This document shows positions 881 to 35,937 of a stretch of DNA of 64,000 nucleotides, piece after piece. Under the pieces are notes generated by a model that saw nothing but the letters and a program-made list of their open reading frames with translations, ran no database searches and was not told the DNA's origin. Source of the DNA: an uncultured Gammaproteobacteria bacterium (lineage in GTDB: Bacteria; Patescibacteriota; Patescibacteriia; UBA9934); NCBI GenBank assembly GCA_964452565.1, contig CAYVLY010000002.1, positions 119,166 to 183,165 of the forward strand, in the 5' to 3' direction. Positions within the stretch are counted from its first letter, which is position 1. Every line of letters begins with the position of its first letter. The position numbers and the translations under genes were made by a program.

Positions 881-902
881 GGTGTTTCAGGCCTGAAACA
901 CC
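881..902. repeat. Perfect 22-bp palindrome GGTGTTTCAGGCCTGAAACACC, copy 1, in the upstream region of the 73..777 gene
   Basis: Exact self-complementary 22-mer. Recurs at 28414, 30076 and, with one mismatch, 35914. Confidence 0.9.
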
Positions 903-1020
903 CGGGATCATGCAAAAAAACGAACAGCAAAAAGACCCGTCAGAAACGGGCCTCAAGACGAACGACTGACAGCAGATGAGCAATGAGCACGGGCTATCGA
1001 GCTGCAGGCGTCATACTACA

Positions 1021-1698
1021 TCAGGAGGCGCGACGGAGCCTCCTGGGCAGCAGTTCCACGCTCACTCCGGCCTTCTGCCGAAAGACGATGAGATACTCAT
1101 GGGAGATCGGGATGAAGGTGCCAGTGTAGCGTTTTCTGTTCGAGGCCATGTTGTGCTGCACCTTGATGACCACCCCCTCCAGCGCCTCATCAGGGAGCGC
1201 CTCCACCACGGTGGGCAACATGCTCCAGTAGTGCCCTCGCCGGCGGATGTCGCCTACGAGCACGGCAAGCCTTCCACCGCGTGACAGCGCCAGGTAGCAG
1301 GAGCGCAGTACCCATGAAAGCGTGGAAGCGAACTGCTCGTAGTCCTCGTAGGTGGACAGATCTCGCTCATCCGGTTGTCTGCCCCAGACCCTGCCCGAGT
1401 AGCGGATGATGTTGAAGTACGGGGGGTGCAGGAAGACGAGGTCAGCGGGACGCTCCAGCATCTTCAACAGGGGCAGTGAGGTTGCGTCGAACCCGTGGTG
1501 CAGGTCAAAGCCAGCGTAGTCAACGCGCAATCGCTTGCACACGTCCCTGGACGTGCCCGAGCCCTCCATGGGGTCCACGACGAAGCGTGGCTGGTAGTGC
1601 TCGATCAGGGCCTCGATGACCTTGCCCGAGCAGTTGCCCGGGTAGCGAGAGTCACCGTCATGGCCGCGGGCAGGGAAAGACAGAATGCTCGAATCCAT
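1021..1698 (-). CDS. DNA N6-adenine/N4-cytosine methyltransferase (orphan)
   Basis: SAM-binding motif DPMEGSGTS followed about 50 aa later by the catalytic HPPY (D/N/S-PP-Y/F-type). No cognate nuclease adjacent. Confidence 0.75.
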   Translation of the reverse strand: MDSSILSFPARGHDGDSRYPGNCSGKVIEALIEHYQPRFVVDPMEGSGTSRDVCKRLRVDYAGFDLHHGFDATSLPLLKMLERPADLVFLHPPYFNIIRYSGRVWGRQPDERDLSTYEDYEQFASTLSWVLRSCYLALSRGGRLAVLVGDIRRRGHYWSMLPTVVEALPDEALEGVVIKVQHNMASNRKRYTGTFIPISHEYLIVFRQKAGVSVELLPRRLRRAS

Positions 1699-1716
1699 GG
1701 CTCTTGTCCTCCCCTG

Positions 1717-1968
1717 CTACTTGCCGAGCCGGAGCAGGCGCACGTGGTTCTGGGCGCGCTCACGCAGCTCCCTTGGAGCACTCTGCTCCAGAGCAACCAA
1801 GAAGTAGGGGCGTCCAGTGCCGTCGTTGAGCAGCTCTTGGTACTTGTCATGGGTGAGCTTGTGCCTCTGCCTGAACAGGATGACCTCGTGAGGGGCGGCG
1901 TCGCGCATCCAGTCCTCCTCGATGATGTCGGCAACGCCCTCGGCGCCCAACAGAACCAGAATGACCAT
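1717..1968 (-). CDS. Small hypothetical protein (83 aa)
   Basis: ORF immediately upstream of, and co-directional with, the methyltransferase. No recognisable motif. Confidence 0.35.
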   Translation of the reverse strand: MVILVLLGAEGVADIIEEDWMRDAAPHEVILFRQRHKLTHDKYQELLNDGTGRPYFLVALEQSAPRELRERAQNHVRLLRLGK

Positions 1969-2424
1969 ATTGGTCTCCTTTCGTGTTGTGGTTCTTGGCC
2001 ACAGTACGAGTCAGGAGGGCTCTCTGGCAGGAGGGATCGCAGGGGGAAGAAGCACTATCCGCAGATCAGATTGACGATTCCATAGAGTGGGAGTATCCTT
2101 TTTTCTACAAACAAATACACCGTTTGCGATTGGTGGCCTTGGGCTCTTGCCTTTGGCCGTAGAAGACCGATCACAGGAGGGGAACGGATGTTCCCATGCT
2201 TGCCACAATGGCTCGTTCAGCGACGCTACCGGTCTTCTACCCGGCGGCACATGCTTGGACGGGCCTTTTTGGATTTACAGAAATACAGTGTTTGTCTACG
2301 CAGAAGTGGACATACCTGTGGACAACGCTCGCCTTTCGCAAGGCGTTCTCACCCTGTCAGCCCGCCTACGCATGCCCCATAGCAAGAGCTACGATGTCAA
2401 CAATGTTCTTGACATTCCTTGCCT

Positions 2425-2694
2425 ATGAAAAAACGAATTCTCAACGCCATCCGCAGCCTGCGGATGGCCAGAAACAAACCGTGGAGGCAGCTCGACCTGG
2501 GGCGCCTTATTGGGGTTTCGCAGGGAGACGTCGGCGCCTATGAGGGCGGAAAAGTGGTCCCCTCGCTTCCCAAAGCGTTGGATATCGCCAATGCACTTGG
2601 TAAGCCCGTGGAGACCGTGTTTTTCGAACTCAACGAGAGTTCCATCGAGCGTGTTGGACAAAGACGCCGAGAACTTTCTGCCCCCAGGAGGTAG
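2425..2694 (+). CDS. XRE-family (Cro/CI-type) HTH transcriptional regulator
   Basis: Typical HTH_3 layout (LGRLIGVSQGDVGAYEGGKVVPSLPKALDIANALGKPVETVF). Divergent from the methyltransferase operon. Confidence 0.7.
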   Translation: MKKRILNAIRSLRMARNKPWRQLDLGRLIGVSQGDVGAYEGGKVVPSLPKALDIANALGKPVETVFFELNESSIERVGQRRRELSAPRR

Positions 2695-2710
2695 TTTACT
2701 AACTACGAAT

Positions 2711-2756
2711 ACAGAAGACCCTGTTCACTTACCTGGGAGTGAACAGGGTCTTCTGT
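2711..2756. terminator. Long perfect hairpin (18-bp stem, 10-nt loop) just downstream of the XRE regulator gene
   Basis: ACAGAAGACCCTGTTCAC-ttacctggga-GTGAACAGGGTCTTCTGT, followed by AT-rich (TA)5. Could be a bidirectional terminator or an operator. Confidence 0.45.
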
Positions 2757-3400: not shown

Positions 3401-4002
3401 GTACCAGTGCAAATTTGTATGACGCGAATACGGCTCGTCGCCGCCTCTGCCTGGGCATCGCTCTGGGCAAGCGTGAAGCGGGTCTTGCACTGGCCAGCCG
3501 AGAGCACCTGTTTCTGGACCGAGTTCTCACACTACGCAAGATTCCCTCCGTGGATGGCAGAGAACGCCGATTCGCGCAGGTCGTGGATAAACTGATTGAT
3601 GATTTCGATGTTCAAAGGGTTTCCCTGGTGCTCCCTCATGGTAGACATGCCAAAGAACCTCAAGTACAGGCCCAGATCTCCTGCCTGGAGCGTGTGAGAG
3701 AGGAACGAGGGCTGTCACTCAACACCTATGAGATGGAGGAGGTCAAGCGCTCGCTAATTCCGACGGATAAAAACATGAGCCTACGAGAACTTGCCGAAGT
3801 GCTTGCAGAGCAATTCACAGAGCTTAAGTCCAAGGCACCAAGCACGACTCCTGTTCCTGGCGCCGAACACCTGCCAGAGCTTGCGAATCGGCCACGCAGA
3901 ACCAGAACAGCTCGCGAGAGGTATTGGGCACGCATGTTCCTGGCCCTGGGAGCAGCCATCTATGACCTGAACAGGCAGATAGTCCATGAACTGCATGTAT
4001 GA
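3397..4002 (+). CDS. YqgF/RuvC-like putative Holliday-junction resolvase family protein
   Basis: N-terminal RLCLGIALGKREAGLAL and a later DDFDVQRVSLVLP resemble the YqgF/RuvX layout. Start overlaps the upstream ORF stop. Confidence 0.4.
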   Translation: MSTSANLYDANTARRRLCLGIALGKREAGLALASREHLFLDRVLTLRKIPSVDGRERRFAQVVDKLIDDFDVQRVSLVLPHGRHAKEPQVQAQISCLERVREERGLSLNTYEMEEVKRSLIPTDKNMSLRELAEVLAEQFTELKSKAPSTTPVPGAEHLPELANRPRRTRTARERYWARMFLALGAAIYDLNRQIVHELHV

Positions 4003-4862
4003 GCAAGGAAGAAACGCGAACTCTGCGTCTGACAAGCAGAGACCTCGATACACTCTCTGACCTGGGCGACTACAGATTCATGAGCATTGCCCAGCTCGCA
4101 GCTCTGCACTTCCCGACAGAGGGGGCAGCGCAGGCCAGGCTACGAAGGCTTGTGGAAGGCGGCCTGGCGCTCAAGGTCTATGTTCCAGTAAGGCCCTACG
4201 ACCGTAGCGCTCACACCATCTACGCCCTTTCTGCCAAGGGTGCTCGGGAACTCGCAGACGCCCGCGGGTGCAAGCGACCTCGGCACTTGTCCGAGCGAGA
4301 GCGCAGAAGCGGGCTCTTCCTGGACCACACGCTCCGGCGAAACGACCTGCGAGTCTGCCTGGAGTTGCTCCAGAGCATGGAGCCTGGATTCCGCCTGCTC
4401 ATCTGGCGCCAGGCCAAGGACGAGGTGGGCACGAGCGCCAGGGTGCGTGTGGGCAGAGGGAGAGAGCAGAGAGTGCCCATCGTGCCAGACGGGTACTTCG
4501 CCGTACAGATAGGAGCGGGGTTCGAGAACTTCGTGGTGGAGATCGACATGGGCACAGTGCGCCTCGACCGGATGGCCTTGCGCTACAAAGCGTACTGGAA
4601 ATGGTGGAAGGCAGGCGGGCACAAGGCTTTGTATGGCCCTCTGCCTATCCGAGTCCTGACACTCACCACCACACCCCGTAGACTCGAAGCCCTGCGAAAG
4701 GCAGCCATGGAGGCGCCCATGGGAGGGAGCACCGGCTCAAACCTCTTCTGGTTCGCCTGCCTCGAGTGCGCTGACATCCAATCGCCAGAAAAGCTGCTTA
4801 CCCCGGTCTGGACAACAGCGCAGAAGCGCCCAGGGCCACTACGGAAGCTAATTAAATCATAA
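3999..4862 (+). CDS. Replication-relaxation family protein (Replic_Relax-like)
   Basis: N-terminal wHTH (MSIAQLAALHF) plus FLDHTLRRNDLRVCLE and VEIDMGT motifs typical of this family on Gram-positive conjugative elements. ATGA overlap with the upstream gene. Confidence 0.65.
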   Translation: MSKEETRTLRLTSRDLDTLSDLGDYRFMSIAQLAALHFPTEGAAQARLRRLVEGGLALKVYVPVRPYDRSAHTIYALSAKGARELADARGCKRPRHLSERERRSGLFLDHTLRRNDLRVCLELLQSMEPGFRLLIWRQAKDEVGTSARVRVGRGREQRVPIVPDGYFAVQIGAGFENFVVEIDMGTVRLDRMALRYKAYWKWWKAGGHKALYGPLPIRVLTLTTTPRRLEALRKAAMEAPMGGSTGSNLFWFACLECADIQSPEKLLTPVWTTAQKRPGPLRKLIKS

Positions 4863-4888
4863 ACAAACTGCATATGCGTAGAAAATGG

Positions 4889-5032: not shown

Positions 5033-5041
5033 GCACAGATA

Positions 5042-12739: not shown

Positions 12740-12749
12740 AGGAGAGTCC

Positions 12750-13232
12750 ATGAAGCGCATCCTGCCTCTGGCCATCATCGCCATCATCATCCTGACCGCG
12801 TTGGCTGGCCCGGTCGTTTCCGGCTTCCTGTTCATGGGAGCCATCCTGTGCTTCGCGGGCGCCGGGTGCATCATGATTGCCGGAGCAGAAGCACTGGCCG
12901 GGCGTCTGGCCGCCTACGCGGGAGGCTGTCTTTTCGCGGGGATTATCCTGCGGGCCGTCGCTGGGGCGAGCGCTCAGTTGAGTCCGAGCATCATGGTCGG
13001 GCTCCTGGCGCTCCTGGGCTTGGTCGTGCTTGCAGGAGCCTTGGTCCTCCTGTCCCGGATCATCGTGCAACGGCCGCCGGCGGGTCCTCGACCTCGGCCC
13101 ATGGCCAGACCACGGGCTCGCCTGGTCGAGCACATCGAATCCGATCCTACCGCGTGGGTGGGCACTCGACAGTCTGCTCGCACCGACGACGAGCTGGGCA
13201 TCCTCGGTGAGGGTGATGTTCGCCAGAGATGA
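12750..13232 (+). CDS. Small membrane protein with four TM helices
   Basis: RBS AAGGAG. Glycine/alanine-rich TM helices. Possible membrane partner of the downstream ATPase. Confidence 0.55.
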   Translation: MKRILPLAIIAIIILTALAGPVVSGFLFMGAILCFAGAGCIMIAGAEALAGRLAAYAGGCLFAGIILRAVAGASAQLSPSIMVGLLALLGLVVLAGALVLLSRIIVQRPPAGPRPRPMARPRARLVEHIESDPTAWVGTRQSARTDDELGILGEGDVRQR

Positions 13233-15044: not shown

Positions 15045-15100
15045 GCAAGCTGAAGTGCCCAGCTCGGACTCGGCCCCGCCCTCCTGGCGGAACCAGGGTG

Positions 15101-21760: not shown

Positions 21761-23758
21761 ATGCCGAATCAGATTCGAACTCTGCCAGACGGCAAGATAT
21801 GCGATTTCATTGATGGAACTATCCGTAACGACACGCCGGAGGAATACGTTAGGCAGAATATTGAGAAACGCCTCGTCTTGGAGCTTGGGTATTCACTTGG
21901 CCAGATAGCTGTCGAATTTCCTATTCGCATCGGTAGCCGACGGGCACGGATTGACCTTGCCGTATTCCCGGAAGATGCCGCTCACACACAAGACAACGTG
22001 CATGTCATTGTTGAGTGCAAGCGAGAGTCAGTAGAGCCCACCGATCACAAGAACGGCGTTGAGCAACTCAAGTCCTACATGTCGGCTTGCCCCAACGCTG
22101 CTTGGGGGATGTGGACAAATGGCCGATACAAAGATGTGATTCGAAAGACCGTCTCTGACGGCAGCATCGAGTGGGAATCCCCGAATGATATCCCCGCCAA
22201 GGATGGGGATACAGACCGGTTGGACATGCCGTCCCGTGAAGATCTCACTAACGCAACGGACGACAACCTTCTCTTCTCTTTCAAGACATGTCACAATCAC
22301 ATCTATGTTACCGACGGGCTCCAGAAGCAACCCGCCTTCTTTGAGCTTTTAAAGGTGATCTTCTGTAAGATCCACGACGAGCGAAACGTACCTCATGCCC
22401 TTGAGTTCTACGCAACGGCCGCCGAAAAGGCGAGCAATGATGGTCGGCTGACAGTGGCGCGACGCATCGGCAGAATCTTCGATCGAGTGAAGGCGCGATA
22501 CCCAGCCATCTTTGACGGTGGAGACACAATTGCACTGGAACCACGGTCACTTGCCTATGTAGTTGGCGAGCTACACAAGTACAGCTTCCTGACTACAAAC
22601 ATCGACGTGAAAGGCAAGGCGTATGAAGAGTTAGTCGGTGCGAACTTGCGTGGAGACCGCGGAGAATTCTTCACGCCGCGCAATGTGCAGCGCATGGTTA
22701 TCGAAATGCTTGATGTACAGGTCGATGAGCGTGTTCTTGATCCCGCGTGTGGTACAGGTGGTTTCCTTGTCATTGCAATGAAATTGATAATCGATCAACT
22801 TCGAGAAAAGGCAGGATTCTATGCAGATGAGATGGTCAATCCGGCTGTCTTGCACGCCGTCGACCTGCGCGTGCGAGAGCTTGCAAGGTCTTGTTTCTTT
22901 GGTTTCGACATAAACCCCGACCTCGTCAAGGCGACCAAGATGAACATGGTCATGAACAACGATGGGTCGGGTAACATCTTCAGAGAAAACAGTTTATTGC
23001 ATCCACACCAGTGGTCTGACGGTTTCAAACAGGAACTCGCAGACGCGCTCGGGAAAAAGCCTCTTTCTCTGCGTGGGCCAGGCCACCTTGGTTATTTTGA
23101 CGTCATCGCTACGAATCCCCCTTTTGGCGCCAGACTGCCCATCAAGGACCGCGAAACATTGAGTCAATACGATCTTGGCTATGTGTGGACCGAGACGAAA
23201 ACCGGTTGGCAGAAAACACGCAAACTCCAGTCGTCCATGCCGCCTGAAGTTCTCTTTATCGAACGATGCTGGCAGTTTCTCAAACCTGGCGGCCGAATGG
23301 GCATCGTTTTGCCAGATTCCATTCTGGGCGCGCCTGGACAGCGTTTTGTTCGAGAGTGGATACTTCGCCACTGTCGGCTGATTGCCTCGGTCGATCTTCA
23401 TCCAGATACTTTTCAGCCACGCAACAGCACACACACGTCAGTTCTTGTGCTACAGCGAAAGACTGAAGATGAAATCCGTCGAGAGGAGAAACAAGGGCAG
23501 CTCAACGACTACTCGATCTTCATGGCTCAAGCGAAGGCGATTGGTCACGATAGACGAGGAAAGACTATTTATCGTCGAAATGAAGATGGGGAGATTGTGC
23601 TGGTGCCGCCCCCAGGTTCGGTTTCTACGTTGGAACGTACAGCGGACGGTTCTCCAGTCAGCCGTCCTCTACCAAGGCAGAAAATCAAGGACGATGATTG
23701 TCCTTTCATCTCTCAAGAGTTTCGTACCTGGAAGAAGACGGAGGTACTTGGCTGGTGA
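21761..23758 (+). CDS. N6-adenine DNA methyltransferase (HsdM/Type IIG-like) fused to an N-terminal HsdR-N/PD-(D/E)xK nuclease-like domain
   Basis: RBS AGGAG 9 nt upstream of ATG 21761. N-terminal YVRQNIEKRLV...IDLAVF...VIVECKR (restriction-endonuclease-fold core). FFTPRNVQRMV..LDPACGTGGFL (motif I). NPPFG (motif IV). Confidence 0.8.
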   Translation: MPNQIRTLPDGKICDFIDGTIRNDTPEEYVRQNIEKRLVLELGYSLGQIAVEFPIRIGSRRARIDLAVFPEDAAHTQDNVHVIVECKRESVEPTDHKNGVEQLKSYMSACPNAAWGMWTNGRYKDVIRKTVSDGSIEWESPNDIPAKDGDTDRLDMPSREDLTNATDDNLLFSFKTCHNHIYVTDGLQKQPAFFELLKVIFCKIHDERNVPHALEFYATAAEKASNDGRLTVARRIGRIFDRVKARYPAIFDGGDTIALEPRSLAYVVGELHKYSFLTTNIDVKGKAYEELVGANLRGDRGEFFTPRNVQRMVIEMLDVQVDERVLDPACGTGGFLVIAMKLIIDQLREKAGFYADEMVNPAVLHAVDLRVRELARSCFFGFDINPDLVKATKMNMVMNNDGSGNIFRENSLLHPHQWSDGFKQELADALGKKPLSLRGPGHLGYFDVIATNPPFGARLPIKDRETLSQYDLGYVWTETKTGWQKTRKLQSSMPPEVLFIERCWQFLKPGGRMGIVLPDSILGAPGQRFVREWILRHCRLIASVDLHPDTFQPRNSTHTSVLVLQRKTEDEIRREEKQGQLNDYSIFMAQAKAIGHDRRGKTIYRRNEDGEIVLVPPPGSVSTLERTADGSPVSRPLPRQKIKDDDCPFISQEFRTWKKTEVLGW

Positions 23759-25479
23759 GACCTCAATTTGCCCCAAACACGTCGGAGATTCCAGCAAGGC
23801 CCCGTAGGGACTCTATTGCCACAACGGTTTCACTCAAAGAAGTCGTCACCCAAGGAACACGGTTTGACGCTTCAGCGTACGACATAGAATCACGCAATAC
23901 GCTCACAACGATTGAGTCGTGTGGGCTATGTGTCCTGCCGTTGTTCGGCTCGAAAGGCCTCTGCAAGGAAGCACACAATGCCTTCCGCTTCAGGCGAGTT
24001 TTTGCTTCAGAACAAGGGCTACCGTTCCTGACCAGCGCTGACATCATCAAGATGCGACTGGACTATCGTCGTCATTTGAGTCGATCGCAGACTCCACGAG
24101 TGCGAGAGCTTCTTCTTCAGAAGTGGGATGTCTTAATTTCTTGTTCGGGAACCATTGGAAACGTCGCGCTGGCGGGTCCGGCGGTCGAAGGGTTTGCAGC
24201 GTCACAAGATATCATTCGGCTTCGTGCGACAAATAGTGACATTGCAGGTTACGTTGCGGCTTTCCTGCGTTCTCGCTATGGGAGAGGACTGATTGCGAAT
24301 GCGACCTATGGATCGGTAATAACGCACATTGAACCAGATCACCTATCCAGGATTCCCATCCCTGTACCACGTCCACACCTCATGAACGTCGTTGGCACGC
24401 AGATGAGAGAAGCCGTGCTACTGCGTGAACGAGCAAATCGGCTTCTCGATGACGCGGAAGCCGCCCTGTACGATGTTCTCGGCTTCGAGAGGCTTGATAC
24501 CCGGCACATGCGATCTACCACCATTCGCGCTCGGGAGCTCAATGGCCGCTTCGATGCCAGATACCACGAGCCAGTTGCTATTGCTGCTCTGCGGGATTTG
24601 GAGACATGCCGTTATCCGATATCGACAATTGGCGATGGCGCTGTATGTACTGAGATCCGGCAGGTCACGAGGTTTCGTAAGCGCGTATATGTTGAACGAG
24701 GTGGAATTCCTCTCCTAACAACGCGGCAGCTATTCCAGTACGACCCAGTCAAGATAAGTCACCTTGCAAAAGGCGCGCACGAAAAAGACCTCAAAGAAAT
24801 CGCGCTTGCGCCGAACATGGTAACTGTGAACTGCTCTGGTCGACTCGGCCGAGTGCAGGCAGGCACGCTCGGGCGTGTGCAGATTATCCCCAGATATATG
24901 TCGGAGTGGACTACTTCTCAACATGCACTGCGGCTTGTCGCTGCGCCTGACCTCAACGCAGGCTATCTCTATGCCTGGCTTGCCTCGGCCCACGGCCTTC
25001 GTGTCATTACGCGCCATGCATATGGCTCCGTAGTCGTTCACATTAACCGTCACATGATGGCCGAGGTTCCAATACCTCTCCCAACAAGGGAGAAGCGCAA
25101 CATGATTGGCGATCTTGTACTTCTGGCAAACCGACTGCGCGATGAAGCCTGGCGAAGGGAGCAAACTGCTATCCGGCAAGTTGAGGCTCTCATAGCCCTC
25201 CCCCCAGCTGAACATGATCCGATGGGATTTCGGATGGCTCAACTGGAGGCGGAGGCGAGTGGCGTTTATGCGCAGATAGAAAGTTCGTCTGACGAGCAAG
25301 AGGCATCCCGTCTACGCAGGAGACTTCGGCATCTACAACAAGAGCAGTCGGACCTGATGCAACAGGTCTTCTCCAGCCAGTTCTCACTTCCCCCAGAAGT
25401 TGGAGAGGATGTTATCGCCCTTGCTGACCGAGTACTGCGGGAGTATCGTGCTACTACCACCACGGCTTCAACCAAGTGA
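23698..25479 (+). CDS. hsdS: Type I restriction-modification specificity subunit (HsdS) with two target-recognition domains
   Basis: Duplicated TRD architecture with conserved SGTIGN/NCSGRLGRV-type segments and a central coiled-coil spacer. Alternative GTG start at 23755 overlaps the methyltransferase stop (GTGA). Confidence 0.75.
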   Translation: MSFHLSRVSYLEEDGGTWLVRPQFAPNTSEIPARPRRDSIATTVSLKEVVTQGTRFDASAYDIESRNTLTTIESCGLCVLPLFGSKGLCKEAHNAFRFRRVFASEQGLPFLTSADIIKMRLDYRRHLSRSQTPRVRELLLQKWDVLISCSGTIGNVALAGPAVEGFAASQDIIRLRATNSDIAGYVAAFLRSRYGRGLIANATYGSVITHIEPDHLSRIPIPVPRPHLMNVVGTQMREAVLLRERANRLLDDAEAALYDVLGFERLDTRHMRSTTIRARELNGRFDARYHEPVAIAALRDLETCRYPISTIGDGAVCTEIRQVTRFRKRVYVERGGIPLLTTRQLFQYDPVKISHLAKGAHEKDLKEIALAPNMVTVNCSGRLGRVQAGTLGRVQIIPRYMSEWTTSQHALRLVAAPDLNAGYLYAWLASAHGLRVITRHAYGSVVVHINRHMMAEVPIPLPTREKRNMIGDLVLLANRLRDEAWRREQTAIRQVEALIALPPAEHDPMGFRMAQLEAEASGVYAQIESSSDEQEASRLRRRLRHLQQEQSDLMQQVFSSQFSLPPEVGEDVIALADRVLREYRATTTTASTK

Positions 25480-26209
25480 TGTACCTCTTGAGCGCCGACA
25501 CTCACCCCGCCCACTTCGAGGAGAGTATGGGTATAGAGGGTATCGACCATGTATACGCTGGGATTTTGGTTTCACCTGCGCGATATGCCTTCTCCACGAA
25601 GCAGACTTCGTTGCTATTGGAATAGAGGGTACGGGGCTAACATCTATTGAGCATATTGAGGCGAGGAGTCACGACCAAGACCTCGTCAATGAATATTCCA
25701 ATCTTCTATATGCCTGTCGTTTCTGCAATACTGCACGGTCAAACCGTGGAAGATCTGCTCTGGATGGAGCGCAACTTCTGGACCCTACAGAAGCGGCCTG
25801 GGAGAACCACTTTTACATAGCTGCAGACGAACTTCGCCCGAAGCATGGAGATCACTCGGCGCAATACACGGCTGACTGCTACGATATTAAAGAACCGCGT
25901 AAAACAACTCTGCGCCGGCTCCGAAGGGAGCACGTCCAGTACTCACAGCGAGTGCTTGAAGCCGCGCCAGGACGTATTGCAGAGCTTAATAACGCCTTGG
26001 CAGACGATTCGATTTCGCCCTCATCTTCGCTCTACCTTCTCCTGAAGAACACGCTGGACGATTTGAAGGTCGAGTATGAGCGCATCATGACAGAGATTCT
26101 TCGCTACTGCGCAATACCGCTTGATGCGGACGACATCTGCCGTTGCGAGGGCGAGGGCAATCGAGCATTGCCGCCATTTATCGCGAGTCAAGTTTGGCAG
26201 ATAGGTTGA
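25400..26209 (+). CDS. HNH endonuclease-domain protein
   Basis: CAICLLHEADF...IEHIEARSH...NLLYACRFCNTAR, i.e. a CxxC...H...N...CxxC HNH motif. Start overlaps hsdS by about 80 nt, and no in-frame start lies downstream of the hsdS stop. Confidence 0.55.
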   Translation: MERMLSPLLTEYCGSIVLLPPRLQPSDVPLERRHSPRPLRGEYGYRGYRPCIRWDFGFTCAICLLHEADFVAIGIEGTGLTSIEHIEARSHDQDLVNEYSNLLYACRFCNTARSNRGRSALDGAQLLDPTEAAWENHFYIAADELRPKHGDHSAQYTADCYDIKEPRKTTLRRLRREHVQYSQRVLEAAPGRIAELNNALADDSISPSSSLYLLLKNTLDDLKVEYERIMTEILRYCAIPLDADDICRCEGEGNRALPPFIASQVWQIG

Positions 26210-27623: not shown

Positions 27624-28325
27624 CTACTCATCATCGGAAGAGCCGAAACCGGGCATCCTGCTCTGCAACTTCTGCTGGAGTTCTTCGCACTTGAGCTTCA
27701 TGCCAATGACGGCCTGGTGGAGCTTCTCGGCGTCGTCCTCATCCAGTTCTTCGACCTTCTCCAGTTCGCCGAAAGCTTCGGAATCGTCGGCCAGCATCTT
27801 GGAGAAACGGTTAATGGTCTTCACGAATGCCGGGAGTGCTGGACGGCCCCTCTTGCCGGCGGCCTTTGCCCTGATGGCCTTCGCCTTCTTTTCGACCGCC
27901 TGGACCTGCCAGCCCTTCTTCTCGGCCTGCTCCAGAAGCCGCCTCTGGTCCTTCTCCTTGAGCCCGATCACGGCGTAGAAGTGCCCGACCTGCAGGTGCT
28001 TCCATTTCGTGACACCGATCTTGTCGCACATCTCGTAGACAGAGACTGCGCGGAAGAGGTTCGCAGCACTCAAGTCGCAGTCTCTGCGCTCGGCCAGTTT
28101 CCTGAACGACGCGTCCTTCTTGCCCCGATCTCGCCAAGCCGCGAGTTCACCGCCGTAGAAATTATCGACGATGATCTTGCCGACATTGAGCGCCATCTCG
28201 AACAGGGATGCTCTCGTCACTTCGTTGATGTCAGCAACGACTTGATCGATGACCTCATCATCGACAGGAGCGGGCAGAACGTCATCCGGGCTGGTCAGCG
28301 CTGTCTCTTCTTTCTCGTCGGCCAT
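27624..28325 (-). CDS. Hypothetical protein (about 233 aa) with a Lys/Glu-rich coiled-coil C-terminus
   Basis: RBS GAGG 8 nt upstream of the internal Met (MADEKEET). Palindrome copy 2 lies about 90 bp upstream. Confidence 0.5.
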   Translation of the reverse strand: MADEKEETALTSPDDVLPAPVDDEVIDQVVADINEVTRASLFEMALNVGKIIVDNFYGGELAAWRDRGKKDASFRKLAERRDCDLSAANLFRAVSVYEMCDKIGVTKWKHLQVGHFYAVIGLKEKDQRRLLEQAEKKGWQVQAVEKKAKAIRAKAAGKRGRPALPAFVKTINRFSKMLADDSEAFGELEKVEELDEDDAEKLHQAVIGMKLKCEELQQKLQSRMPGFGSSDDE

Positions 28326-28413
28326 TTCGTACCTCTGCACAAGGGAACGCTCTTTATTAAGCACGAATCACGAGTGAGTGCAAGTGAATTTCTAACACCA
28401 GACTCCTCTGGTT

Positions 28414-28435
28414 GGTGTTTCAGGCCTGAAACACC
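28414..28435. repeat. Perfect 22-bp palindrome GGTGTTTCAGGCCTGAAACACC, copy 2
   Basis: Exact match. Intergenic between two minus-strand genes. Confidence 0.9.
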
Positions 28436-28588
28436 GCACGAAGAGCCCACACGCATGGACGCCGCCTCTACCTCACATACGCCTGGTGATGGCGATATTC
28501 ACGCTCTCCAGTCGCAAAAACACGCCGTCGAACCTACGCCAACGATGGCGGTGGCTACGGCGTGCACGGCGCTGCGAGCTGGCGGGAA

Positions 28589-29371
28589 CTACTCGGCCTC
28601 GTCCCCGACGACGGTGATCGATTCGATCTCCAGGCTGTTCTGCCAGGGGAAGGCGCCTGTGGAGGTGGTGGCGCGCATGACCACCTTGTCCGACATGATG
28701 CCAGTAATCTCCACCAGGTCGTTCAACTGTAGAGCTCTGACCGACTCGGTGACCTCGGGACTTGACTCGTGCACCGCCCCGATGACCGACGTGTAGATGG
28801 GGCACGCATCGTCGAAGGTGTAGCCCTCTTCCTTGAGGGGGAAGATGGACCAGTGGGCATCCTGGAGGATGTACCCAGAGGTGGGGCAGACGCCACCGAA
28901 AACAGCTCTGACAGTCACTCGGCCGAGGTGGTAGCCGCTGGATGAGCTTTCGAGCTGCTGGAAGGTCACCTCACCCGTCTCGTGGATACGGGAGGAGTGC
29001 GTGTCAGAGGTAAGTTTCTTCGCACGGCTGGCCTTAACAGATGCTGGGATGATGAATGCGAGTCCCACACCACCCACAACTCCACTGAGCACTGTCTGGC
29101 GGGTGTCCTCGTCCATGACGTTGACCACGAGCCCCGTCGTACCCACAGCGAGCAATCCCAGACCGATGCCGATGGAGGTAGCAGGGCGAGAGGCCACCAG
29201 GCCGGAGGACCGGGGCGGAACGCTCGGGACTACTTGAGAGGAACGGGCCGTAGGCTGAAGAAGTAGATGCTCGGGAGCCCGTCTCGGAATGTCGAAGTCC
29301 GAGGGCTCGACCTCACCTGCCAGCGCTGATGGCGCCAGTAGGGAGAGCAGGAGGATCGCAGGGATTTTCAA
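28589..29371 (-). CDS. Putative exported/membrane protein
   Basis: N-terminal signal-peptide-like MKIPAILLLSLLAPSALAGE. Internal hydrophobic segment IGIGLGLLAVGTTGLVV. Confidence 0.5.
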   Translation of the reverse strand: MKIPAILLLSLLAPSALAGEVEPSDFDIPRRAPEHLLLQPTARSSQVVPSVPPRSSGLVASRPATSIGIGLGLLAVGTTGLVVNVMDEDTRQTVLSGVVGGVGLAFIIPASVKASRAKKLTSDTHSSRIHETGEVTFQQLESSSSGYHLGRVTVRAVFGGVCPTSGYILQDAHWSIFPLKEEGYTFDDACPIYTSVIGAVHESSPEVTESVRALQLNDLVEITGIMSDKVVMRATTSTGAFPWQNSLEIESITVVGDEAE

Positions 29372-29566: not shown

Positions 29567-30532
29567 CTACTTTTCATTGATAGATGCTCCATCATCGCAG
29601 AGCAGATCAACGACTTTTCGTAGGCCAGCCTGACCAGGGTGCAGGTAGCGGATCGTGGTCTGGATGGAGGCATGTCCAAGAAGGCGCCTGACCTCTTCAA
29701 TGCTCGCCCCGCGGTTCAAGAGCTCGGTGGCGAAGCCATGCCGCAGCATGTGAGGAGTAACGGCGAAGTTCAGGCCTGCAGCCTTCCCAAGGTCGCTGAC
29801 GTGGAGCTCGACCGTTCGCGGTGAAAGTCTACGGCGAAGCCTAGACACGAAGACCGCATTCGTAGCCAGCTTCAGCGATATTCTCTGCTCAAGCCAGGCA
29901 GCAAGAGCTGCTCGTGCTGTGCGGTTCAAGAGCACCGGCTGGGAGTTGCCGCCCTTGCGCCGGACCTCCAACAGGAGGCCCTCGTCCAGGTCCACCTGGT
30001 CGATGTCGAGGGAGAGAAGCTCATCGAGGCGCAGCCCTGTGTGGAACAGCAGCGTGACCATGCACGAGTCCCTGTGGTGTTTCAGGCCTGAAACACCCAT
30101 CGGGATGGCAGCCAGGAGCCTCTCCATATGCTCCGGCGTCACGACTGGAGGCTCTATCCGAGGAACCTTGACACGAGGGATGTCAGCCTCTGGGCTCAAC
30201 TCTATCACCTCTGTTTTTTCAAGATGTCTGAAAAAACCGCGAAGGACAGTCAGCTTGCGGTTCCGAGTGCTTGGAGAGATCGGGCCCCTGGGGCCTGGCC
30301 GGTTGAGATAGGCCACCAGGTGCTCACGGGTGACTTGCTCTGCCCTCACGACCTCCATCTTCGCGAGGGTTCGCCGAAAAAGGCATAGCTCCTGACGATA
30401 CGAGCGCAGCGTCTTTGGCGTGTACTTGCGCTCCTGTTCCGCGTGCTCCAGGAAGCCGTTGACGGTCGTCGCGAGGTCCATTCTTGAGCGTCGAGGGGTG
30501 AGGGTTTTTGGGGTGGGTGAACTGCGCCACAT
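29567..30532 (-). CDS. XerC/XerD-like tyrosine site-specific recombinase
   Basis: Box I-like TGLRLDELLSL. C-terminal HMLRHGFATELL...LLGHASIQTTIRYLH. Contains palindrome copy 3 in-frame (encoding GVSGLKHH). Confidence 0.85.
   Translation of the reverse strand: MWRSSPTPKTLTPRRSRMDLATTVNGFLEHAEQERKYTPKTLRSYRQELCLFRRTLAKMEVVRAEQVTREHLVAYLNRPGPRGPISPSTRNRKLTVLRGFFRHLEKTEVIELSPEADIPRVKVPRIEPPVVTPEHMERLLAAIPMGVSGLKHHRDSCMVTLLFHTGLRLDELLSLDIDQVDLDEGLLLEVRRKGGNSQPVLLNRTARAALAAWLEQRISLKLATNAVFVSRLRRRLSPRTVELHVSDLGKAAGLNFAVTPHMLRHGFATELLNRGASIEEVRRLLGHASIQTTIRYLHPGQAGLRKVVDLLCDDGASINEK
30076..30097. repeat. Perfect 22-bp palindrome GGTGTTTCAGGCCTGAAACACC, copy 3, inside the recombinase coding sequence
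   Basis: Exact match, embedded in codons of the 29567..30532 ORF. Confidence 0.9.
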
Positions 30533-31735: not shown

Positions 31736-33145
31736 TCAGGCGGCGCGCACCTCCTCTCTCGGCTGGATCTCCCCTGGTCGTCGCCGCAGGCGTCGGGGCT
31801 CCGCGGGTGGCTCGCGCCTGGTGAGGAGCAAGTCGAGGAATGCGCACAGGGAATCCAGGGAGCGGAGGCAGTAGTGGGAGCGCTGTCTCTTGCGGAACTC
31901 CCTGTTCTCTCGCTCTGGGTGGTTGGAGGTCTTGTCGGCGTTGTCGAAATCCAGGTAGTGGGTGAGCCGAGCGAAGAGGCCGTCATTGGACAGATCCGCG
32001 AGCACCAGCTTCATACCAGGGATTCCCTGGAATGCGGGATTGGCGAGGAGGGCCTGTCTGCGCTCCTCTGCCAACTCGTGGGAGTCCGTGCTCGAGCCGA
32101 AGAGCTCGTACATCGCCTCGATGAAGCGGCGGAGCACGCCTAAGGCCGGGCAGAGGCAGAAGGCCTCGTCCAGCATCTTCTGCTCGGCCTCGGTGATGAG
32201 CGGGCGCCCCTTGTCGTCCAGCCCCCCACGCTTGAAGATCAGGAACCGGCAGCGCATCACCTTGCGCCGGTTCTCCCTCTTCCGTTTGTCCAGCCGAGGT
32301 CGTCCCCTCTTCCTTGGGCGGCCACGTTTGCGCTTCTTGGGCTTTGGAAGTTCGTTGTAGGCGGCCCAGAAGGCCTTGGCCAGCTTCCTGTTCGCTCCCA
32401 TGAGGAAGTGGAAGACGCAGCGTTGGTGCTCGGCCTCGGGCCACACCTCTGCGATGATCTCTGGGTAGAGAGAGGAGCCGTCCGTCACCACGATCTGGGG
32501 CATGATGCCCGCCTCTCGCAGCTCCAGGAAAAACTCGCGCACGTCTTGGCCGCAGGGAGAGCCGTCCCCCAGCCGAGAGGAGATCTCCACGCCGTTGAGC
32601 GGATCGGTGGCTCTGATCACGTAGTGGTCGCCTTCGTAGACCTCGTCTACAGCGAGCTGACCGGAGAAGACCGTCACCATCCTCTCCATATGGCTCTGGA
32701 AATCCACCTCGCCCCCAGCTCTGCGGTACCAGCGGAGGACCGTCGTGTCTGCCAGCTTGGGCAGATGGAGCAGGGAGCGGCCCACGGCAGCCGCTCCCTC
32801 AAAGGACAACTTGTGGTCCACGACCAGCGACAGCACGGCGAGGCGAGTGGCGGTCGTATATCGGCTCCGTTCCTCGAATCCTGGAGGCTCAAGACGGAAC
32901 CAGCACTGGCCGCGTGGGCAGTGCTCACAGATGTAGCAGCCGACCTGCACGTACTCCATCGTAGGCCCATCGATGTCGGCCCTCTGGCGTTCCAGCAGGC
33001 GGATTTCGTTCCGCGGAGCTGGGCGACCACATCGAGGGCAGAGTGCGGCCTCTGGGGCGAAGGGGACAGGGTTGAGCTTCTTGGTGGGGAGGGGTATGGT
33101 CTTCATCGGCGCAGGTCCGGTTTGTGGAGCTTGGTAACTACGCAA
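31736..33145 (-). CDS. DDE-type insertion-sequence transposase with an N-terminal zinc ribbon. Family not assigned.
   Basis: CPRCG...CYICEHC zinc ribbon. Acidic residues in a DDE-like arrangement (AVDEVYEGD, IVVTDGSS). Basic KRKRGRPRKRGRPR patch. C-terminal NHPERENREFRKRQR resembles the transposase N..E..N..K/R signature. Confidence 0.6.
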   Translation of the reverse strand: MRSYQAPQTGPAPMKTIPLPTKKLNPVPFAPEAALCPRCGRPAPRNEIRLLERQRADIDGPTMEYVQVGCYICEHCPRGQCWFRLEPPGFEERSRYTTATRLAVLSLVVDHKLSFEGAAAVGRSLLHLPKLADTTVLRWYRRAGGEVDFQSHMERMVTVFSGQLAVDEVYEGDHYVIRATDPLNGVEISSRLGDGSPCGQDVREFFLELREAGIMPQIVVTDGSSLYPEIIAEVWPEAEHQRCVFHFLMGANRKLAKAFWAAYNELPKPKKRKRGRPRKRGRPRLDKRKRENRRKVMRCRFLIFKRGGLDDKGRPLITEAEQKMLDEAFCLCPALGVLRRFIEAMYELFGSSTDSHELAEERRQALLANPAFQGIPGMKLVLADLSNDGLFARLTHYLDFDNADKTSNHPERENREFRKRQRSHYCLRSLDSLCAFLDLLLTRREPPAEPRRLRRRPGEIQPREEVRAA

Positions 33146-33385: not shown

Positions 33386-34002
33386 TCAGACTTCCCTCTT
33401 CAGCTCCGCTCCAGCAAGCCGAAGGCCATGTTTCCGTAGCCGTTTTGTGAGTCGATGTATCCGGACTCTCGCTGTTCCTCTGCGAAGATTTTGGCGCTTG
33501 ATCTCCTGTGTATACTCTTCTGCTCCAGTGAAATAGGACAAAAGAAGGTCTCTATCTTTCTGGTGAAGAGATGAAAGCAGTTGAGAAGTGATCTCCTTGA
33601 ATTGATTCGTACCTCTCCTCGGAAAATACTTCGACTCGTCCTGGACTCGGTCGAATCCATGACAGTGCTCGATGTTCTTGGTGAAGGTCTGGGCCGCACG
33701 AAATCGGTCAATAAGGTGATTGCGAACTATTCGAACGGCATATCCGCGACCAATGGACTCAACATCAGTTCCATGAGTGAGTTCCAGCCTGCGCTCTCGT
33801 TCCATTAGCCGGACGATAGATTCCATCAGGGCATCCTCTCTCGACTCGGCGTCAAAACCGATATCGTGCCGATCGCGAATCTCCGGTAGAAGACCGAGAA
33901 GAGCCGTGAGTTTCTGGTCGGTTGATGGGGGTTTCACATTCGATACCCAAGCGTTGATGGATTGAGGAGCATCTACTGCGCAAGATACTGGGTAGTCAGG
34001 CG
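33386..34002 (-). CDS. ECF-type sigma-70 family RNA polymerase sigma factor
   Basis: Region-2-like YAVRIVRNHLIDRFR and region-4 HTH ARVRIHRLTKRLRK. 5' end trimmed to avoid overlap with the upstream gene. True start uncertain. Confidence 0.5.
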
Positions 34003-34473
34003 TCAATCCCAGTCGAAGAGATCTCTCCACTGCAGGAGTGAGTCGCGATTCGGCACGATCATATCGCCCTGGATTCGTCCGGCCAGAGGAAGCTCTTTCT
34101 TCTCGACGAGCATGGCGGCTACCCTCTTCAGCAGGTTGACGGGCACCCCATACATGGCAGCTATTCTCTCCTGGACTTCGGGGGTCCACCGCGGAAGTGT
34201 TTGGCGCTCGAGGTTTCCACTTCTAACGAGTGAGGCTGATAGCCAGTCGATATACCCATGGGTGGCGGCCAGAATGTCTTGCTGGACCTCCTGTTCCAGA
34301 ATTTCAAGAAAGAGTTCTTCACTGATCTCTGGAATGTCATCTGGCGAGGCTGTTTCAAGAAGCTCCGACAGCTGGTCGAGCGCGCCTTTGCCAATCGATG
34401 GACGAAGTCGATCCCATATCTCCCCGGCAAGGTCAGATTGCTGCTTTCTGATGATCTCCATGAATACCGTCAT
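34003..34473 (-). CDS. Hypothetical acidic protein (156 aa), possibly a sigma-factor partner
   Basis: ORF immediately upstream of the sigma factor on the same strand. Role as a sigma partner is inferred from position only. Confidence 0.4.
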   Translation of the reverse strand: MTVFMEIIRKQQSDLAGEIWDRLRPSIGKGALDQLSELLETASPDDIPEISEELFLEILEQEVQQDILAATHGYIDWLSASLVRSGNLERQTLPRWTPEVQERIAAMYGVPVNLLKRVAAMLVEKKELPLAGRIQGDMIVPNRDSLLQWRDLFDWD

Positions 34474-34655
34474 TCCATGACTCCTGCTTCGATGGTAGGT
34501 CTTCTACCTATAGACGAAGAGGCGTTACACCTTATATGCATTGTTGATATAAGCCTATTTCATCTATGGCCTTCCATGCAGAATCTGGCCTCGTTTCGTG
34601 CCACAAAGGAGATCATCCAAAACCGTTGCCAAAAAGCGCATTTCGAACCCCTCCA

Positions 34656-35489
34656 TCAATGAATGCAGCCCATCCAGACTCTACCGAATGCCATTTTCGC
34701 TGCTGTCTTGACGTTCAGCGGAAGGCCTTCGTCGATCCAGAGTCCGTGTGGGTATACCTCCTTGACAAAACGCTCGTCTGTGAGTTCTTCGCCGGGCCCT
34801 GGGATAGTGCTGATGCCAACAAGAGCGTGTCGTAAACCCATGAGGCTGGACCAACCCAGTGGTACAAGTAGTTCTGGGTCGTATCCAGAGTTTTTGCCAG
34901 CGATGTGCGTTCTTTCCCTTCCCGGGAGTTGCCCTCTAATTACTAAAGCAATTGACTTCGACACTAGATCAGCCAGTTGGACTCCCACTCTCTCTTTCGA
35001 GCAACAGGACAGTTCAAGGGTCAGACCATGCAGCCAAGGGAACTCTTCAAGCGGTTTGTTGAAATCGCAGCCCTTCCAGCCCACTCCTTCATCGAAGTGA
35101 ACAGATTTGAGGCGACCAGCAAGGCCATGGCCAGCAACCCTGTTCAACATGGCAAGGGCTTCCACACCAACAGAGGAGCGACGAGAGCGCTGGTGAATGG
35201 TAGCGATCACTCTGCAACTGCGACTGATTTCAGCGGCAAGCATTTTTCTCAACAGGACCTGTTCAGGGCTCTTTCTAATTGTCGCGGAAGACTTGAATTC
35301 ATCGACGCCTGGGCGAAGTCCCATGCTCTCGAAGCCGATCCGAAGGCGGTCCTCTATATCACCCGGCGCCAAGACAAACGCGCCAACGATGTAGAGGTCT
35401 TGGTCATGAATGCTTTCGTCGAAGTATGCCCGACGAATCCTGCTCCTGCTTTCTGCTGTTCGGGTCATTGACCACTTCCTTCTGTTCAA
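34656..35489 (-). CDS. Hypothetical protein, possibly DUF3800-like
   Basis: N-terminal YFDESIHDQDLYIVGAFV resembles the yiDESG start of DUF3800 proteins. Unverified. Confidence 0.4.
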   Translation of the reverse strand: MNRRKWSMTRTAESRSRIRRAYFDESIHDQDLYIVGAFVLAPGDIEDRLRIGFESMGLRPGVDEFKSSATIRKSPEQVLLRKMLAAEISRSCRVIATIHQRSRRSSVGVEALAMLNRVAGHGLAGRLKSVHFDEGVGWKGCDFNKPLEEFPWLHGLTLELSCCSKERVGVQLADLVSKSIALVIRGQLPGRERTHIAGKNSGYDPELLVPLGWSSLMGLRHALVGISTIPGPGEELTDERFVKEVYPHGLWIDEGLPLNVKTAAKMAFGRVWMGCIH

Positions 35490-35913
35490 TATTCTATGCG
35501 ATAGCCAGCTTGGCCTATTATCCCGGAATCGAACATCGACATCGAGGGGATCGTGCCCATGTCGAACCGACTGTTTGGTGCGTTTTTCTTGCTTGATAGT
35601 GAGTCTCTCTGCTTTTCATAGCAGGGCTGCGGGCAGGAAACAGATGGACCACGGTTTTTCCACCTTCAGTAACTCCAGGGACCATTGCGAGGTGTTGCAT
35701 TGAAGTGATGAAGGTATCAAGCGAGTGAATCCTCTGCAGCCCATATGCAGCCCAAAACTATGGAAAAACGACATTCTGTGGGAGAATTGATAATTAAGGA
35801 GAGAGCAGTCTTCTTTGCGAACTGTAAAGGCAAATCATGATTTCGGCGAGAGTTTGCGGAGTATCGAATCTGCCAATGATAGGGTTCGATTCCCCCGACA
35901 ATTGAAGTGAATC

Positions 35914-35937
35914 GAGTGTTCCAGGCCTGAAACACCT
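35914..35937. repeat. Near-perfect copy 4 of the palindrome (GTGTTCCAGGCCTGAAACACC, one mismatch) close to the island/host junction
   Basis: One substitution relative to the 22-mer. About 125 bp from the tRNA-Val 3' end. Confidence 0.8.

What the first reader, a model, noticed from the sequence alone, without database searches (positions are those of the whole stretch)
881..35937. Perfect 22-bp palindrome GGTGTTTCAGGCCTGAAACACC present 3 times exactly and once with one mismatch, including inside a recombinase gene
A 22-mer recurring exactly three times in 36 kb cannot be chance. Copies lie at 881..902, 28414..28435 and 30076..30097, with a single-mismatch copy at 35914..35937. Copy 1 sits in the promoter region of the SSAP-like gene, about 50 bp before its start. 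Copy 2 sits about 90 bp upstream of the minus-strand gene 27624..28325. Copy 3 lies inside the coding sequence of the XerC-like tyrosine recombinase, encoding GVSGLKHH. Copy 4 is about 125 bp from the island/host junction. The GGCC-centred dyad with 9-bp arms fits a dimeric DNA-binding protein (operator) or a recombination or insertion site. Presence inside a coding sequence favours a mobile or recombinogenic DNA motif over a terminator. It could mark module boundaries of the mosaic, or be the target of the adjacent Xer-like recombinase.
Basis: seen in the sequence. Interest (0 to 1): 0.75.

Follow-up and report, generated by a model that had tools for sequence, protein, structure and literature searches.

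The report
Binding sites for a ParB-like protein
The repeated 22-base palindrome is most likely the docking site of a small ParB-type DNA-binding protein encoded next to one copy, a protein/site pair that recurs in many related integrative mobile elements and resembles known parS/ParB and KorB-operator systems but lacks their CTP-switch domain.

Summary
GGTGTTTCAGGCCTGAAACACC occurs exactly at 881, 28414 and 30076. A fourth copy at 35915-35936 has two mismatches, not one. None is expected by chance, flanks are unrelated, and the motif is absent from the host part of the window and essentially from 185,579 species genomes. It is not a REP, MITE or terminator.

The gene 89 bp downstream of copy 2 (27624-28325, minus) encodes a 233-aa all-helical protein with a ParB-type HTH and no CTPase domain. 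Relatives of this protein in 19 independent contigs carry 11 palindromes of the form nnTGTT-N10-AACAnn, against 0.01 expected. Ten of the 11 lie inside or within 140 bp of the homologous gene. Half-sites change with the recognition helix, and in-gene copies use rare codons. One relative has its own version upstream of the same recombination operon as copy 1.

The half-site TGTTTCA equals the canonical parS half-site, moved 1 bp outward on each side.

The best reading is cognate operator/parS-like sites of an uncharacterised ParB-HTH protein on an ICE/IME-like island, not a prophage, in a CPR bacterium. Recombinase homologues do not share the peptide encoded by copy 3. It is a new variant of a known kind. 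Binding and function are inferred, not shown.

The parts
881..902 (.). Site 1, a perfect 22-bp dyad. It is intergenic, just downstream (on the minus strand) of the terminator of the methylase gene and upstream of the 234-aa / PD-(D/E)XK nuclease operon.
   Evidence: The orthologous position in L006 carries that element's own dyad.
28414..28435 (.). Site 2, a perfect dyad 89 bp upstream of the ParB-HTH-like gene. It is the presumed autoregulatory or loading site.
   Evidence: L011 has the same arrangement, and L018 and L024 have their own dyads 94 and 138 bp upstream.
30076..30097 (.). Site 3, a perfect dyad inside the tyrosine recombinase CDS. It lies in the variable linker before the RD motif and encodes GVSGLKH.
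35915..35936 (.). Site 4, a degenerate dyad (2 transitions in the left arm, TGTT kept). It is in a roughly 570-bp non-coding stretch 125 bp from tRNA-Val.
27624..28325 (-). Gene for the 233-aa ParB-HTH-like protein, the proposed binder. It is all-helical, lacks a ParB/Srx CTPase domain, and has a conserved RGRPALPAFVK motif and a long C-terminal helix.
27995..28016 (-). Degenerate relic (GGTGTCACGAAATGGAAGCACC, encoding GVTKWKH) at the position where many homologues carry an intact in-gene dyad.
73..777 (-). 234-aa gene downstream of site 1. It is 52% identical to the L006 gene that also follows a dyad, and it is followed beyond the window start by a PD-(D/E)XK nuclease and a large serine recombinase.
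29567..30532 (-). Xer-like tyrosine recombinase that contains site 3.
932..954 (-). Intrinsic-terminator-like hairpin plus T-run that ends the methylase gene just before site 1.
36061..36137 (-). tRNA-Val(GAC), marking the right-hand junction of the island with the host.

Best explanation
The four palindromes are the cognate binding sites of the element-encoded 233-aa ParB-HTH-like protein (27624-28325, minus). They are operator or parS-like sites. A dimer is proposed to place one ParB-type helix-turn-helix on each TGTTTC(A/C) half-site. These are the half-sites of canonical parS, each moved 1 bp away from the dyad centre, so the site is nnTGTT-N10-AACAnn. The central 4 bp are a non-specific spacer.

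Shown here:
- The sites exist and are specific to the element.
- The site family co-occurs with this protein family, and its sequence co-varies with it.
- There is DNA-level selection on the sites.

Inferred:
- Physical binding.
- Dimerisation through the long C-terminal helix.
- The consequence of binding.

The most likely consequence (about 0.5 given binding) is KorB/StrR-like transcriptional control of backbone operons. That would mean autoregulation from site 2 and control of the 234-aa/nuclease recombination operon from site 1. In relatives, sites lie between the gene and the following recombinase or small gene. The alternative (about 0.3) is a position-independent centromere-like or nucleation tag that keeps factor and site genetically linked. 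That reading is suggested by the many in-gene sites.

For: 2) Co-occurrence. A strict TGTT-N10-AACA scan with at least 4 of 5 inner pairs gives 11 sites in 19 distinct homologue loci (164 kb), against 0.01 in shuffles. Ten of the 11 lie inside or within 140 bp of the homologous gene. L006 and L021 hold further GTTTCC-N4-GGAAAC copies, 4 and 3 respectively.

3) Co-variation. Half-sites differ between protein subgroups with different recognition helices: SAxxLYR goes with GGTGTTTCC, AYNTIWYSVA with TGTTCAC, and SYxF(I/V)W with TGTTTCC or ATTTCC plus CCGG.

4) DNA-level selection. In-gene sites always encode (G/D/N)VSx(W/R)(K/E/Q)(H/Q) in frame, using GGT, GTT and AAA. These codons are rare in those 63-70% GC genes; in L019 the only GGT and the only GTT of the gene lie in the site, and in L021 and L022 the only GTT does.

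5) Positional conservation with a changed sequence. L006 has CGTTTCCACGTGGAAACG 13 bp upstream of the orthologue (52% identity) of the gene that follows copy 1.

6) Independence from recombinase type. L006 carries a large serine recombinase, while L004 and L013-15 carry tyrosine integrases.

7) The L025 site TGTTTCAC-CG-GTGAAACA is canonical parS with 2 bp inserted at the centre. The Pseudomonas parS consensus is quoted in PMC12409273.

8) There is precedent. BisD binds two 23-bp bisS palindromes that lie inside genes on ICEclc.

Against: In one search, L008, L012, L023, L027, L028 and L032 show no site under that strict motif; several are short or cut contigs. L006 and L021 also lack a strict site but carry CGTT/GGTT variants, and L023 and L027 carry looser parS-like dyads (GGTGTTCC..., ATTTCCCCGGGGAAAT).

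No sigma-70-type promoter was detected next to sites 1 or 2, though the promoter rules of the CPR host are unknown. Sites inside coding sequences are not classical operators. No ParA-like partner was found, which weakens a partition role.
Confidence: 0.8

Rival explanations
1. The palindromes are core recombination sites (8-bp arms and a 6-bp overlap, AGGCCT) for the Xer-like tyrosine recombinase, analogous to dif or pdif sites, and they mark the boundaries of exchangeable modules.
For: The 8-6-8 geometry is compatible with tyrosine-recombinase core sites. One copy lies in the recombinase gene and one lies near the tRNA junction. The central bases differ between elements, as overlap regions do.
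Against: The related dyads follow the ParB-HTH-like gene, not the recombinase. They occur beside a large serine recombinase in L006 and in contigs with no recombinase in view. Recombination between copies 2 and 3 would destroy the recombinase gene. Fully symmetric sites give no directionality. The flanks show no module-boundary homology. Ten of the 11 relatives' sites sit in or beside the ParB-like gene.
Confidence: 0.06
2. The palindromes act as RNA hairpins in minus-strand transcripts, as processing, stability or terminator elements.
For: A 9-bp stem with a GGCC loop folds at about -13 kcal/mol. Both substitutions in copy 4 keep G-U pairs on the minus-strand RNA. Three copies lie in or after minus-strand transcription units.
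Against: No U-run follows any copy. The stem sequence itself (TGTT...AACA) is conserved across proteins that are only 28-50% identical, rather than only the pairing. The L019 variant breaks pairing on both strands. The z-scores are unremarkable for copies 1 and 4. The two transitions falling on the same strand is a 1-in-2 event.
Confidence: 0.05
3. It is a miniature mobile or REP-like palindromic repeat that spreads by itself, or a restriction/modification target (the centre AGGCCT is a StuI-type site, and GGCC lies within it).
For: It is a short perfect palindrome in several copies. Copy 1 is next to an N6/N4 methylase, and the element carries an RM system.
Against: There are no conserved flanks and no target duplications. 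There are no copies in the 28 kb of host DNA. Only three singleton hits occur in 185,579 genomes and none in viral contigs. The centre is the least conserved part in relatives (ATGT, GACC, GGTC, GATC, CCGG, GCGC), which contradicts an RM target.
Confidence: 0.03

Closest known systems
Chromosomal ParB-parS (Spo0J/ParB, 16-bp TGTTNCACGTGNAACA)
   Same: The DNA-binding domain is a ParB-type HTH. The half-site TGTTTCA/C is identical. The site is a palindrome and often lies inside or next to the gene for its own binder, as with the parS inside B. subtilis spo0J (my knowledge).
   Different: There is no N-terminal ParB/Srx CTPase domain and no GxxR motif. No ParA partner was found. The half-sites are 2 bp further apart (22-bp dyad). 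The system is carried by an integrative mobile element.
KorB-OB of IncP plasmid RK2
   Different: KorB is a CTP-dependent clamp with IncC (ParA) and KorA partners, and OB is a 13-bp site of different sequence (my knowledge). None of those partner or domain features was found here.
BisD-bisS of ICEclc (PMC12409273)
   Same: It is a ParB-like protein of an integrative conjugative element. It recognises a long (23-bp) palindrome present in a few copies, both of them inside coding sequences, and it controls element genes.
   Different: BisD has the CTPase domain and an activator domain, and it slides over about 50 kb. The bisS sequence is unrelated. The protein here has the HTH plus helical extensions only.
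StrR/LmbU-type ParB-like HTH transcription factors of actinomycete gene clusters
   Same: They are ParB-like HTH regulators that bind palindromes at promoters, without a CTP-clamp or partition role as far as I know (from my knowledge for StrR). The LmbU family gives a weak hit, E 0.0036, and LmbU binds CGCCGGCG.
   Different: The hit is far below the family cut-off (17 against 125 bits). The sites are different, and the genomic context is biosynthetic clusters rather than mobile elements.

Membership tests
ParB/parS partition system | ParB-type HTH DNA-binding domain | tested here: met
ParB/parS partition system | N-terminal ParB/Srx CTPase domain with a GxxR motif | tested here: not met
   No ParBc hit in any member. 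The AF2 model is all-helical with no beta-containing N-domain. The alignment has no GxxR box.
ParB/parS partition system | 16-bp parS TGTTNCACGTGNAACA | tested here: not met
   The half-site TGTTTCA is shared, but the spacing is 2 bp larger: TGTT-N10-AACA against TGTT-N8-AACA.
ParB/parS partition system | Adjacent ParA-type ATPase | tested here: not met
   No ParA/CbiA-type hit among 40 ORFs of the island and its left extension L033 scanned with Pfam; subsets were also scanned with PHROGs and NCBIfam. Neighbours of the homologues lack one too. Unannotated ORFs remain.
KorB-type global regulator with dispersed operators | Identical palindromes dispersed over the element, including promoter-proximal ones and the regulator's own promoter | tested here: inconclusive
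   Sites 1 and 2 are intergenic and upstream of operons, the latter being the protein's own gene. Promoters could not be identified. Sites 3 and 4 are not promoter-proximal.
KorB-type global regulator with dispersed operators | CTP-dependent clamp with KorA and IncC partners | tested here: not met
   There is no CTPase domain. Partners were not found.
REP / MITE-like repeats | Many copies through the host genome, or conserved flanks with target duplications | tested here: not met
   There are 0 copies in 28 kb of host DNA, the flanks are unrelated, and the motif is essentially absent from public genomes.
Xer/dif-like or integrase core site | The site co-occurs with and is used by the tyrosine recombinase | tested here: not met
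   The dyads follow the ParB-like gene and occur with serine recombinases. Actual recombination could not be tested.
Intrinsic terminator | G+C-rich hairpin followed by a T-run, placed at gene ends | tested here: not met
   There is no T-run after any copy, and one copy is inside a CDS. The terminator scan does not report the palindrome hairpin as a terminator at either site scanned. It reports other hairpins: 932-954 next to copy 1, and 28525-28545 and 28397-28412 next to copy 2; the T-run counted for the last of these runs into the left arm of copy 2.

The most novel reading that the evidence does not exclude
A large, uncharacterised family of CTPase-less ParB-HTH proteins (about 2,500 clusters at 50% identity) forms a self-linked factor/site pair on integrative mobile elements. 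It uses a parS variant expanded by 2 bp, often embedded in the factor's own reading frame as GVSxWKH. It would act as a clamp-independent centromere or identity tag, or as a global silencer, for the excised element, here on a GC-rich ICE-like island in a CPR (Uhrbacteria-like) bacterium. That would show how parS recognition was re-used without the CTP switch.
Probability: 0.3. Interest if true: 0.65.

Novelty: new variant of a known kind. Interest (0 to 1): 0.5.

Why it matters
It turns an anonymous repeat into a testable protein/DNA pair. The 233-aa protein and a 22-bp oligonucleotide are all that a binding test needs. It also points to a widespread ParB-HTH family in integrative elements with no curated annotation. 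This family keeps the parS half-site but has a different spacing and no CTPase. That is useful for understanding how ParB/parS specificity and function diversify, as with Noc, KorB and BisD. It gives a practical marker (nnTGTT-N10-AACAnn next to the gene) for recognising these elements in metagenomes, including in CPR bacteria, whose mobile elements are poorly known. It is not a new principle.

Tried and rejected
- Prophage operator idea. The island has no phage structural genes among the ORFs scanned. It has two Replic_Relax proteins, a weak T4CP-like ATPase, three recombinases, a Mutator-family transposase and RM genes.
- Neisseria/Pasteurellaceae-type uptake sequence. This was considered from memory and dropped, because the motif is absent from host DNA.
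- The 253/234-aa protein downstream of copy 1 as a paralogue of the binder. hhalign gives probability 0.5%, so no.
- Direct PDB sequence search with the single protein found nothing useful. PHROGs gave no hit, and NCBIfam gave only a far sub-threshold LmbU hit.
- Viral contigs hold neither the motif nor relatives of the protein.
- Pfam on the genes downstream of relatives' sites was uninformative.
- Reaching the left end of the island failed. Two look-ups returned only the Logan contig, which ends 2.67 kb left of the window, so the total number of sites on the element is unknown.
- Promoter scans near sites 1 and 2 found no sigma-70-like promoter.
- 'SSAP' identity of the gene after copy 1 could not be verified.
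Full report
**Observation**

The 22-mer GGTGTTTCAGGCCTGAAACACC is present exactly at 881-902, 28414-28435 and 30076-30097. A fourth copy at 35915-35936 (AGTGTTCCAGGCCTGAAACACC) has two mismatches, both transitions in the left arm. No other match with up to three mismatches exists in the 64 kb, and shuffles give none.

Aligning 100 nt on each side shows no similarity outside the palindrome. The repeat family is 22-23 nt long. Isolated half-sites are not enriched. All four copies lie in the GC-rich part of the window, 1 to about 36,060 at 52-65% GC. None lies in the 28 kb of roughly 45% GC DNA to the right of tRNA-Val 36061-36137.

A scan of one genome for each of 185,579 species with the 20-nt core found three single copies in unrelated taxa, which is chance level. 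A scan of 2.9 million viral contigs found none. So this is not a generic REP.

**Setting**

The GC-rich region is not a prophage. The annotated genes are listed here.

| Coordinates | Product |
|---|---|
| 3999-4862 and 14957-16006 | two Replic_Relax proteins |
| 13030-14700 | weak T4CP/FtsK-like ATPase |
| 18156-19367 and 29567-30532 | tyrosine recombinases |
| 31736-33145 | Mutator-family transposase |
| 21692-26209 | type IIG/I-like RM genes plus an HNH protein |
| 1021-1698 | N6/N4 methylase |

A Logan contig identical to the window over 11.7 kb extends 2.67 kb to the left. It adds a PD-(D/E)XK nuclease and a large serine recombinase.

Host genes cluster with proteins named Candidatus Uhrbacteria. 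An independent Logan contig spans from the ParB-like gene across the tRNA into host genes, so the junction is not an artefact of one assembly.

**Position of the copies**

- Copy 1 lies between the terminator of the methylase gene (932-954, minus) and the start of a 234-aa gene (ATG 777).
- Copy 2 lies between the stop of gene 28589-29371(-) and ATG 28325 of gene 27624-28325(-).
- Copy 3 lies in the recombinase gene and encodes GVSGLKH, in the variable linker just before the conserved RD motif.
- Copy 4 lies in a non-coding stretch 125 bp from the tRNA.

**The key lead**

TGTTTCA is the half-site of canonical parS, TGTTNCAC|GTGNAACA. The Pseudomonas consensus TGTTCCACGTGGAACN is quoted in PMC12409273. 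The gene next to copy 2 gives a weak hit to the ParB HTH domain.

The protein has 233 aa. Evidence on its fold and relatives:
- Ten homologues at 40-100% identity were found.
- All ten match HTH_ParB (best E 3.8e-7), and none matches the ParB N-terminal domain.
- A profile of the family hits ParB/Spo0J first among PDB sequences, at E about 0.01.
- The AlphaFold model (pLDDT 79) is all-helical.
- A full HMMER scan finds 2,509 cluster representatives at E below 1e-3, so the family is large.
- No curated Pfam, PHROGs or NCBIfam model claims it.

**Comparative test**

I fetched the contigs that encode the homologues and 14 further metagenomic loci. Related dyads appear again and again.

| Locus | Dyad | Position relative to the homologous gene |
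|---|---|---|
| L018 | GGTGTTTCCGACCGGAAACACC | 94 bp upstream |
| L004 | GGTGTTTCCATGTGGAAACACC | inside |
| L020, L022, L013, L019 | near-identical dyads | inside |
| L006 | four GTTTCC-N4-GGAAAC copies | dispersed |
| L021 | three GTTTCC-N4-GGAAAC copies | dispersed |
| L024 | CTTGTTACACCGGTGTAACAAG | 138 bp upstream |
| L026 | GTTGTTTCCCCGGGGAAACAAC | 45 bp downstream |
| L029, L030 | CTTGTTCACGCGCGTGAACA(A/G)G | 46-77 bp downstream |
| L025 | TGTTTCACCGGTGAAACA | 3.7 kb downstream |

A strict definition (TGTT-N10-AACA with at least 4 of 5 inner pairs) gives 11 sites in 19 distinct loci (164 kb), against 0.01 in dinucleotide shuffles. Ten of the 11 are inside or within 140 bp of the gene.

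The centre varies freely and is often non-palindromic. The half-sites differ between subgroups that have different recognition helices.

In-gene sites always read (G/D/N)-V-S-x-(W/R)-(K/E/Q)-(H/Q) in frame 0. They use GGT, GTT and AAA, which are rare in these 63-70% GC genes. In L019 the only GGT and the only GTT of the gene are in the site, and in L021 and L022 the only GTT is. So the DNA sequence itself is under selection. In the window the in-gene position has decayed to GGTGTCACGAAATGGAAGCACC, and an intact site lies upstream instead.

L006 carries its own version, CGTTTCCACGTGGAAACG, 13 bp upstream of the orthologue (52% identity) of the gene that follows copy 1. The position is the same and the sequence differs, as expected for a co-evolving factor/site pair.

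The dyads occur next to tyrosine integrases, next to a large serine recombinase, or with no recombinase in view. So they follow the ParB-like gene and not the recombinase.

**Recombinase peptide**

Eighteen homologues at 34-53% identity have (S/G)W(R/P)xxRD where the window protein has SGLKHHRD. The peptide GVSGLKH is not conserved, and the common W is replaced by L, a change the palindrome requires. The site was fitted into a tolerant linker.

**Mechanism**

Shown:
- An element-specific dyad.
- A tightly linked ParB-HTH protein family whose members carry cognate dyads.
- Co-variation between protein and site.
- Codon-level selection.

Inferred:
- A dimer, probably through the long conserved C-terminal helix (residues 196-223), binds the two half-sites. 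The invariant RGRPxxPxFVK segment resembles an AT-hook core (my reading) and could add minor-groove contacts.
- Geometrically the site is parS with each half moved one base pair outward.
- The protein has no CTPase domain, so ParB/KorB/BisD-type clamping and sliding is not expected.

For the consequence of binding I favour operator-type control. That means autoregulation at site 2 and control of the recombination operon at site 1. In L021, L026 and L030, sites lie between the gene and the next downstream ORF (coordinates). The frequent in-gene location argues that part of the function may be independent of position, as for a centromere-like or identity tag. No ParA partner was found.

**Rivals**

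- **Recombination site for the Xer-like enzyme.** The 8-6-8 geometry fits, but the association data contradict it, and such recombination would be self-destructive.
- **RNA hairpin.** It folds at -13 kcal/mol, but there is no U-run, and conservation is of sequence rather than pairing.
- **REP, MITE or RM target.** Distribution and the variable centre exclude this.

**Comparison with known systems**

This works like parS/ParB, OB/KorB and bisS/BisD, and like StrR/LmbU-type ParB-HTH regulators. The bisS sites also lie inside genes of an ICE. It fails the membership tests for true ParB or KorB: there is no CTPase, no ParA and a different spacing. I rate it a new variant of a known kind, of moderate interest.

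Noticed in passing
window 1-36060 and L036: The GC-rich island (55-65% GC) is an ICE/IME-like element sitting in a roughly 45% GC genome. That genome's proteins cluster with Candidatus Uhrbacteria (CPR). An independent Logan contig (SRR8146441_9369, equal to window 26983-47294) spans the island/host junction, so a chimeric assembly is unlikely.
   Followed up: partly
L033 14250-14269 (about 2.55 kb left of window position 1) and window 36070-36089: A 20-bp exact copy of the tRNA-Val T-arm lies beyond the large serine recombinase at the left side of the island. It is in inverted, not direct, orientation relative to the tRNA gene. Its meaning for the element ends is unclear.
   Followed up: partly
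window 35878-35898 (+): A tRNA-like T-arm and acceptor fragment (AGGGTTCGATTCCCCCGACA) lies 17 bp before copy 4. It may be a relic of an earlier attachment site.
   Followed up: no
window 2711-2756 and 2895-2920: A 19-bp perfect inverted repeat (ACAGAAGACCCTGTTCACT / AGTGAACAGGGTCTTCTGT, 8-nt gap) contains TGTTCAC..GTGAACA. It lies upstream of the small gene 2389-2661(-), which the Logan gene call marks as weakly HTH_3 but which gave no Pfam hit when scanned here. A second dyad, ATCGTGTT-N10-AACACGAT, lies at the start of the plus-strand Replic_Relax operon. These may be operators of another regulator or weak sites of the same protein.
   Followed up: no
window 864-879 and 2859-2874: A 16-bp perfect inverted repeat, GGGAGGAGGGCTGGCA, brackets the 2-kb segment with the methylase, the 83-aa gene and the small gene 2389-2661(-). 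The left arm abuts copy 1. In L006, the recombination gene and the HTH_3 gene that flank the corresponding dyad are adjacent, so at least the methylase segment may be an inserted or invertible module.
   Followed up: no
window 40279-40333, 46544-46574, 51991-52021, 57460-57533: Host intergenic repeats are built from ACAGAAC-like units, with a 55-nt pair that is 93% identical. They are unrelated to the palindrome.
   Followed up: no
window 45050-46618 (-): A host gene carries a T4SS_pilin (PF18895) annotation in the Logan gene call, next to uvrA. This is of interest given reports of a conjugation-like T4SS in Patescibacteria.
   Followed up: no
L004, L006, L008, L012 (neighbours of the homologues): The ParB-HTH-like gene is regularly flanked by anti-phage cargo: CBASS CD-NTase with Cap15 and Cap4, TIR, SIR2, CHAT, and an SbcCD-like pair. 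Backbone genes nearby include Replic_Relax, RadC, HTH_17 excisionase and integrase. These elements look like defence-island carriers.
   Followed up: no
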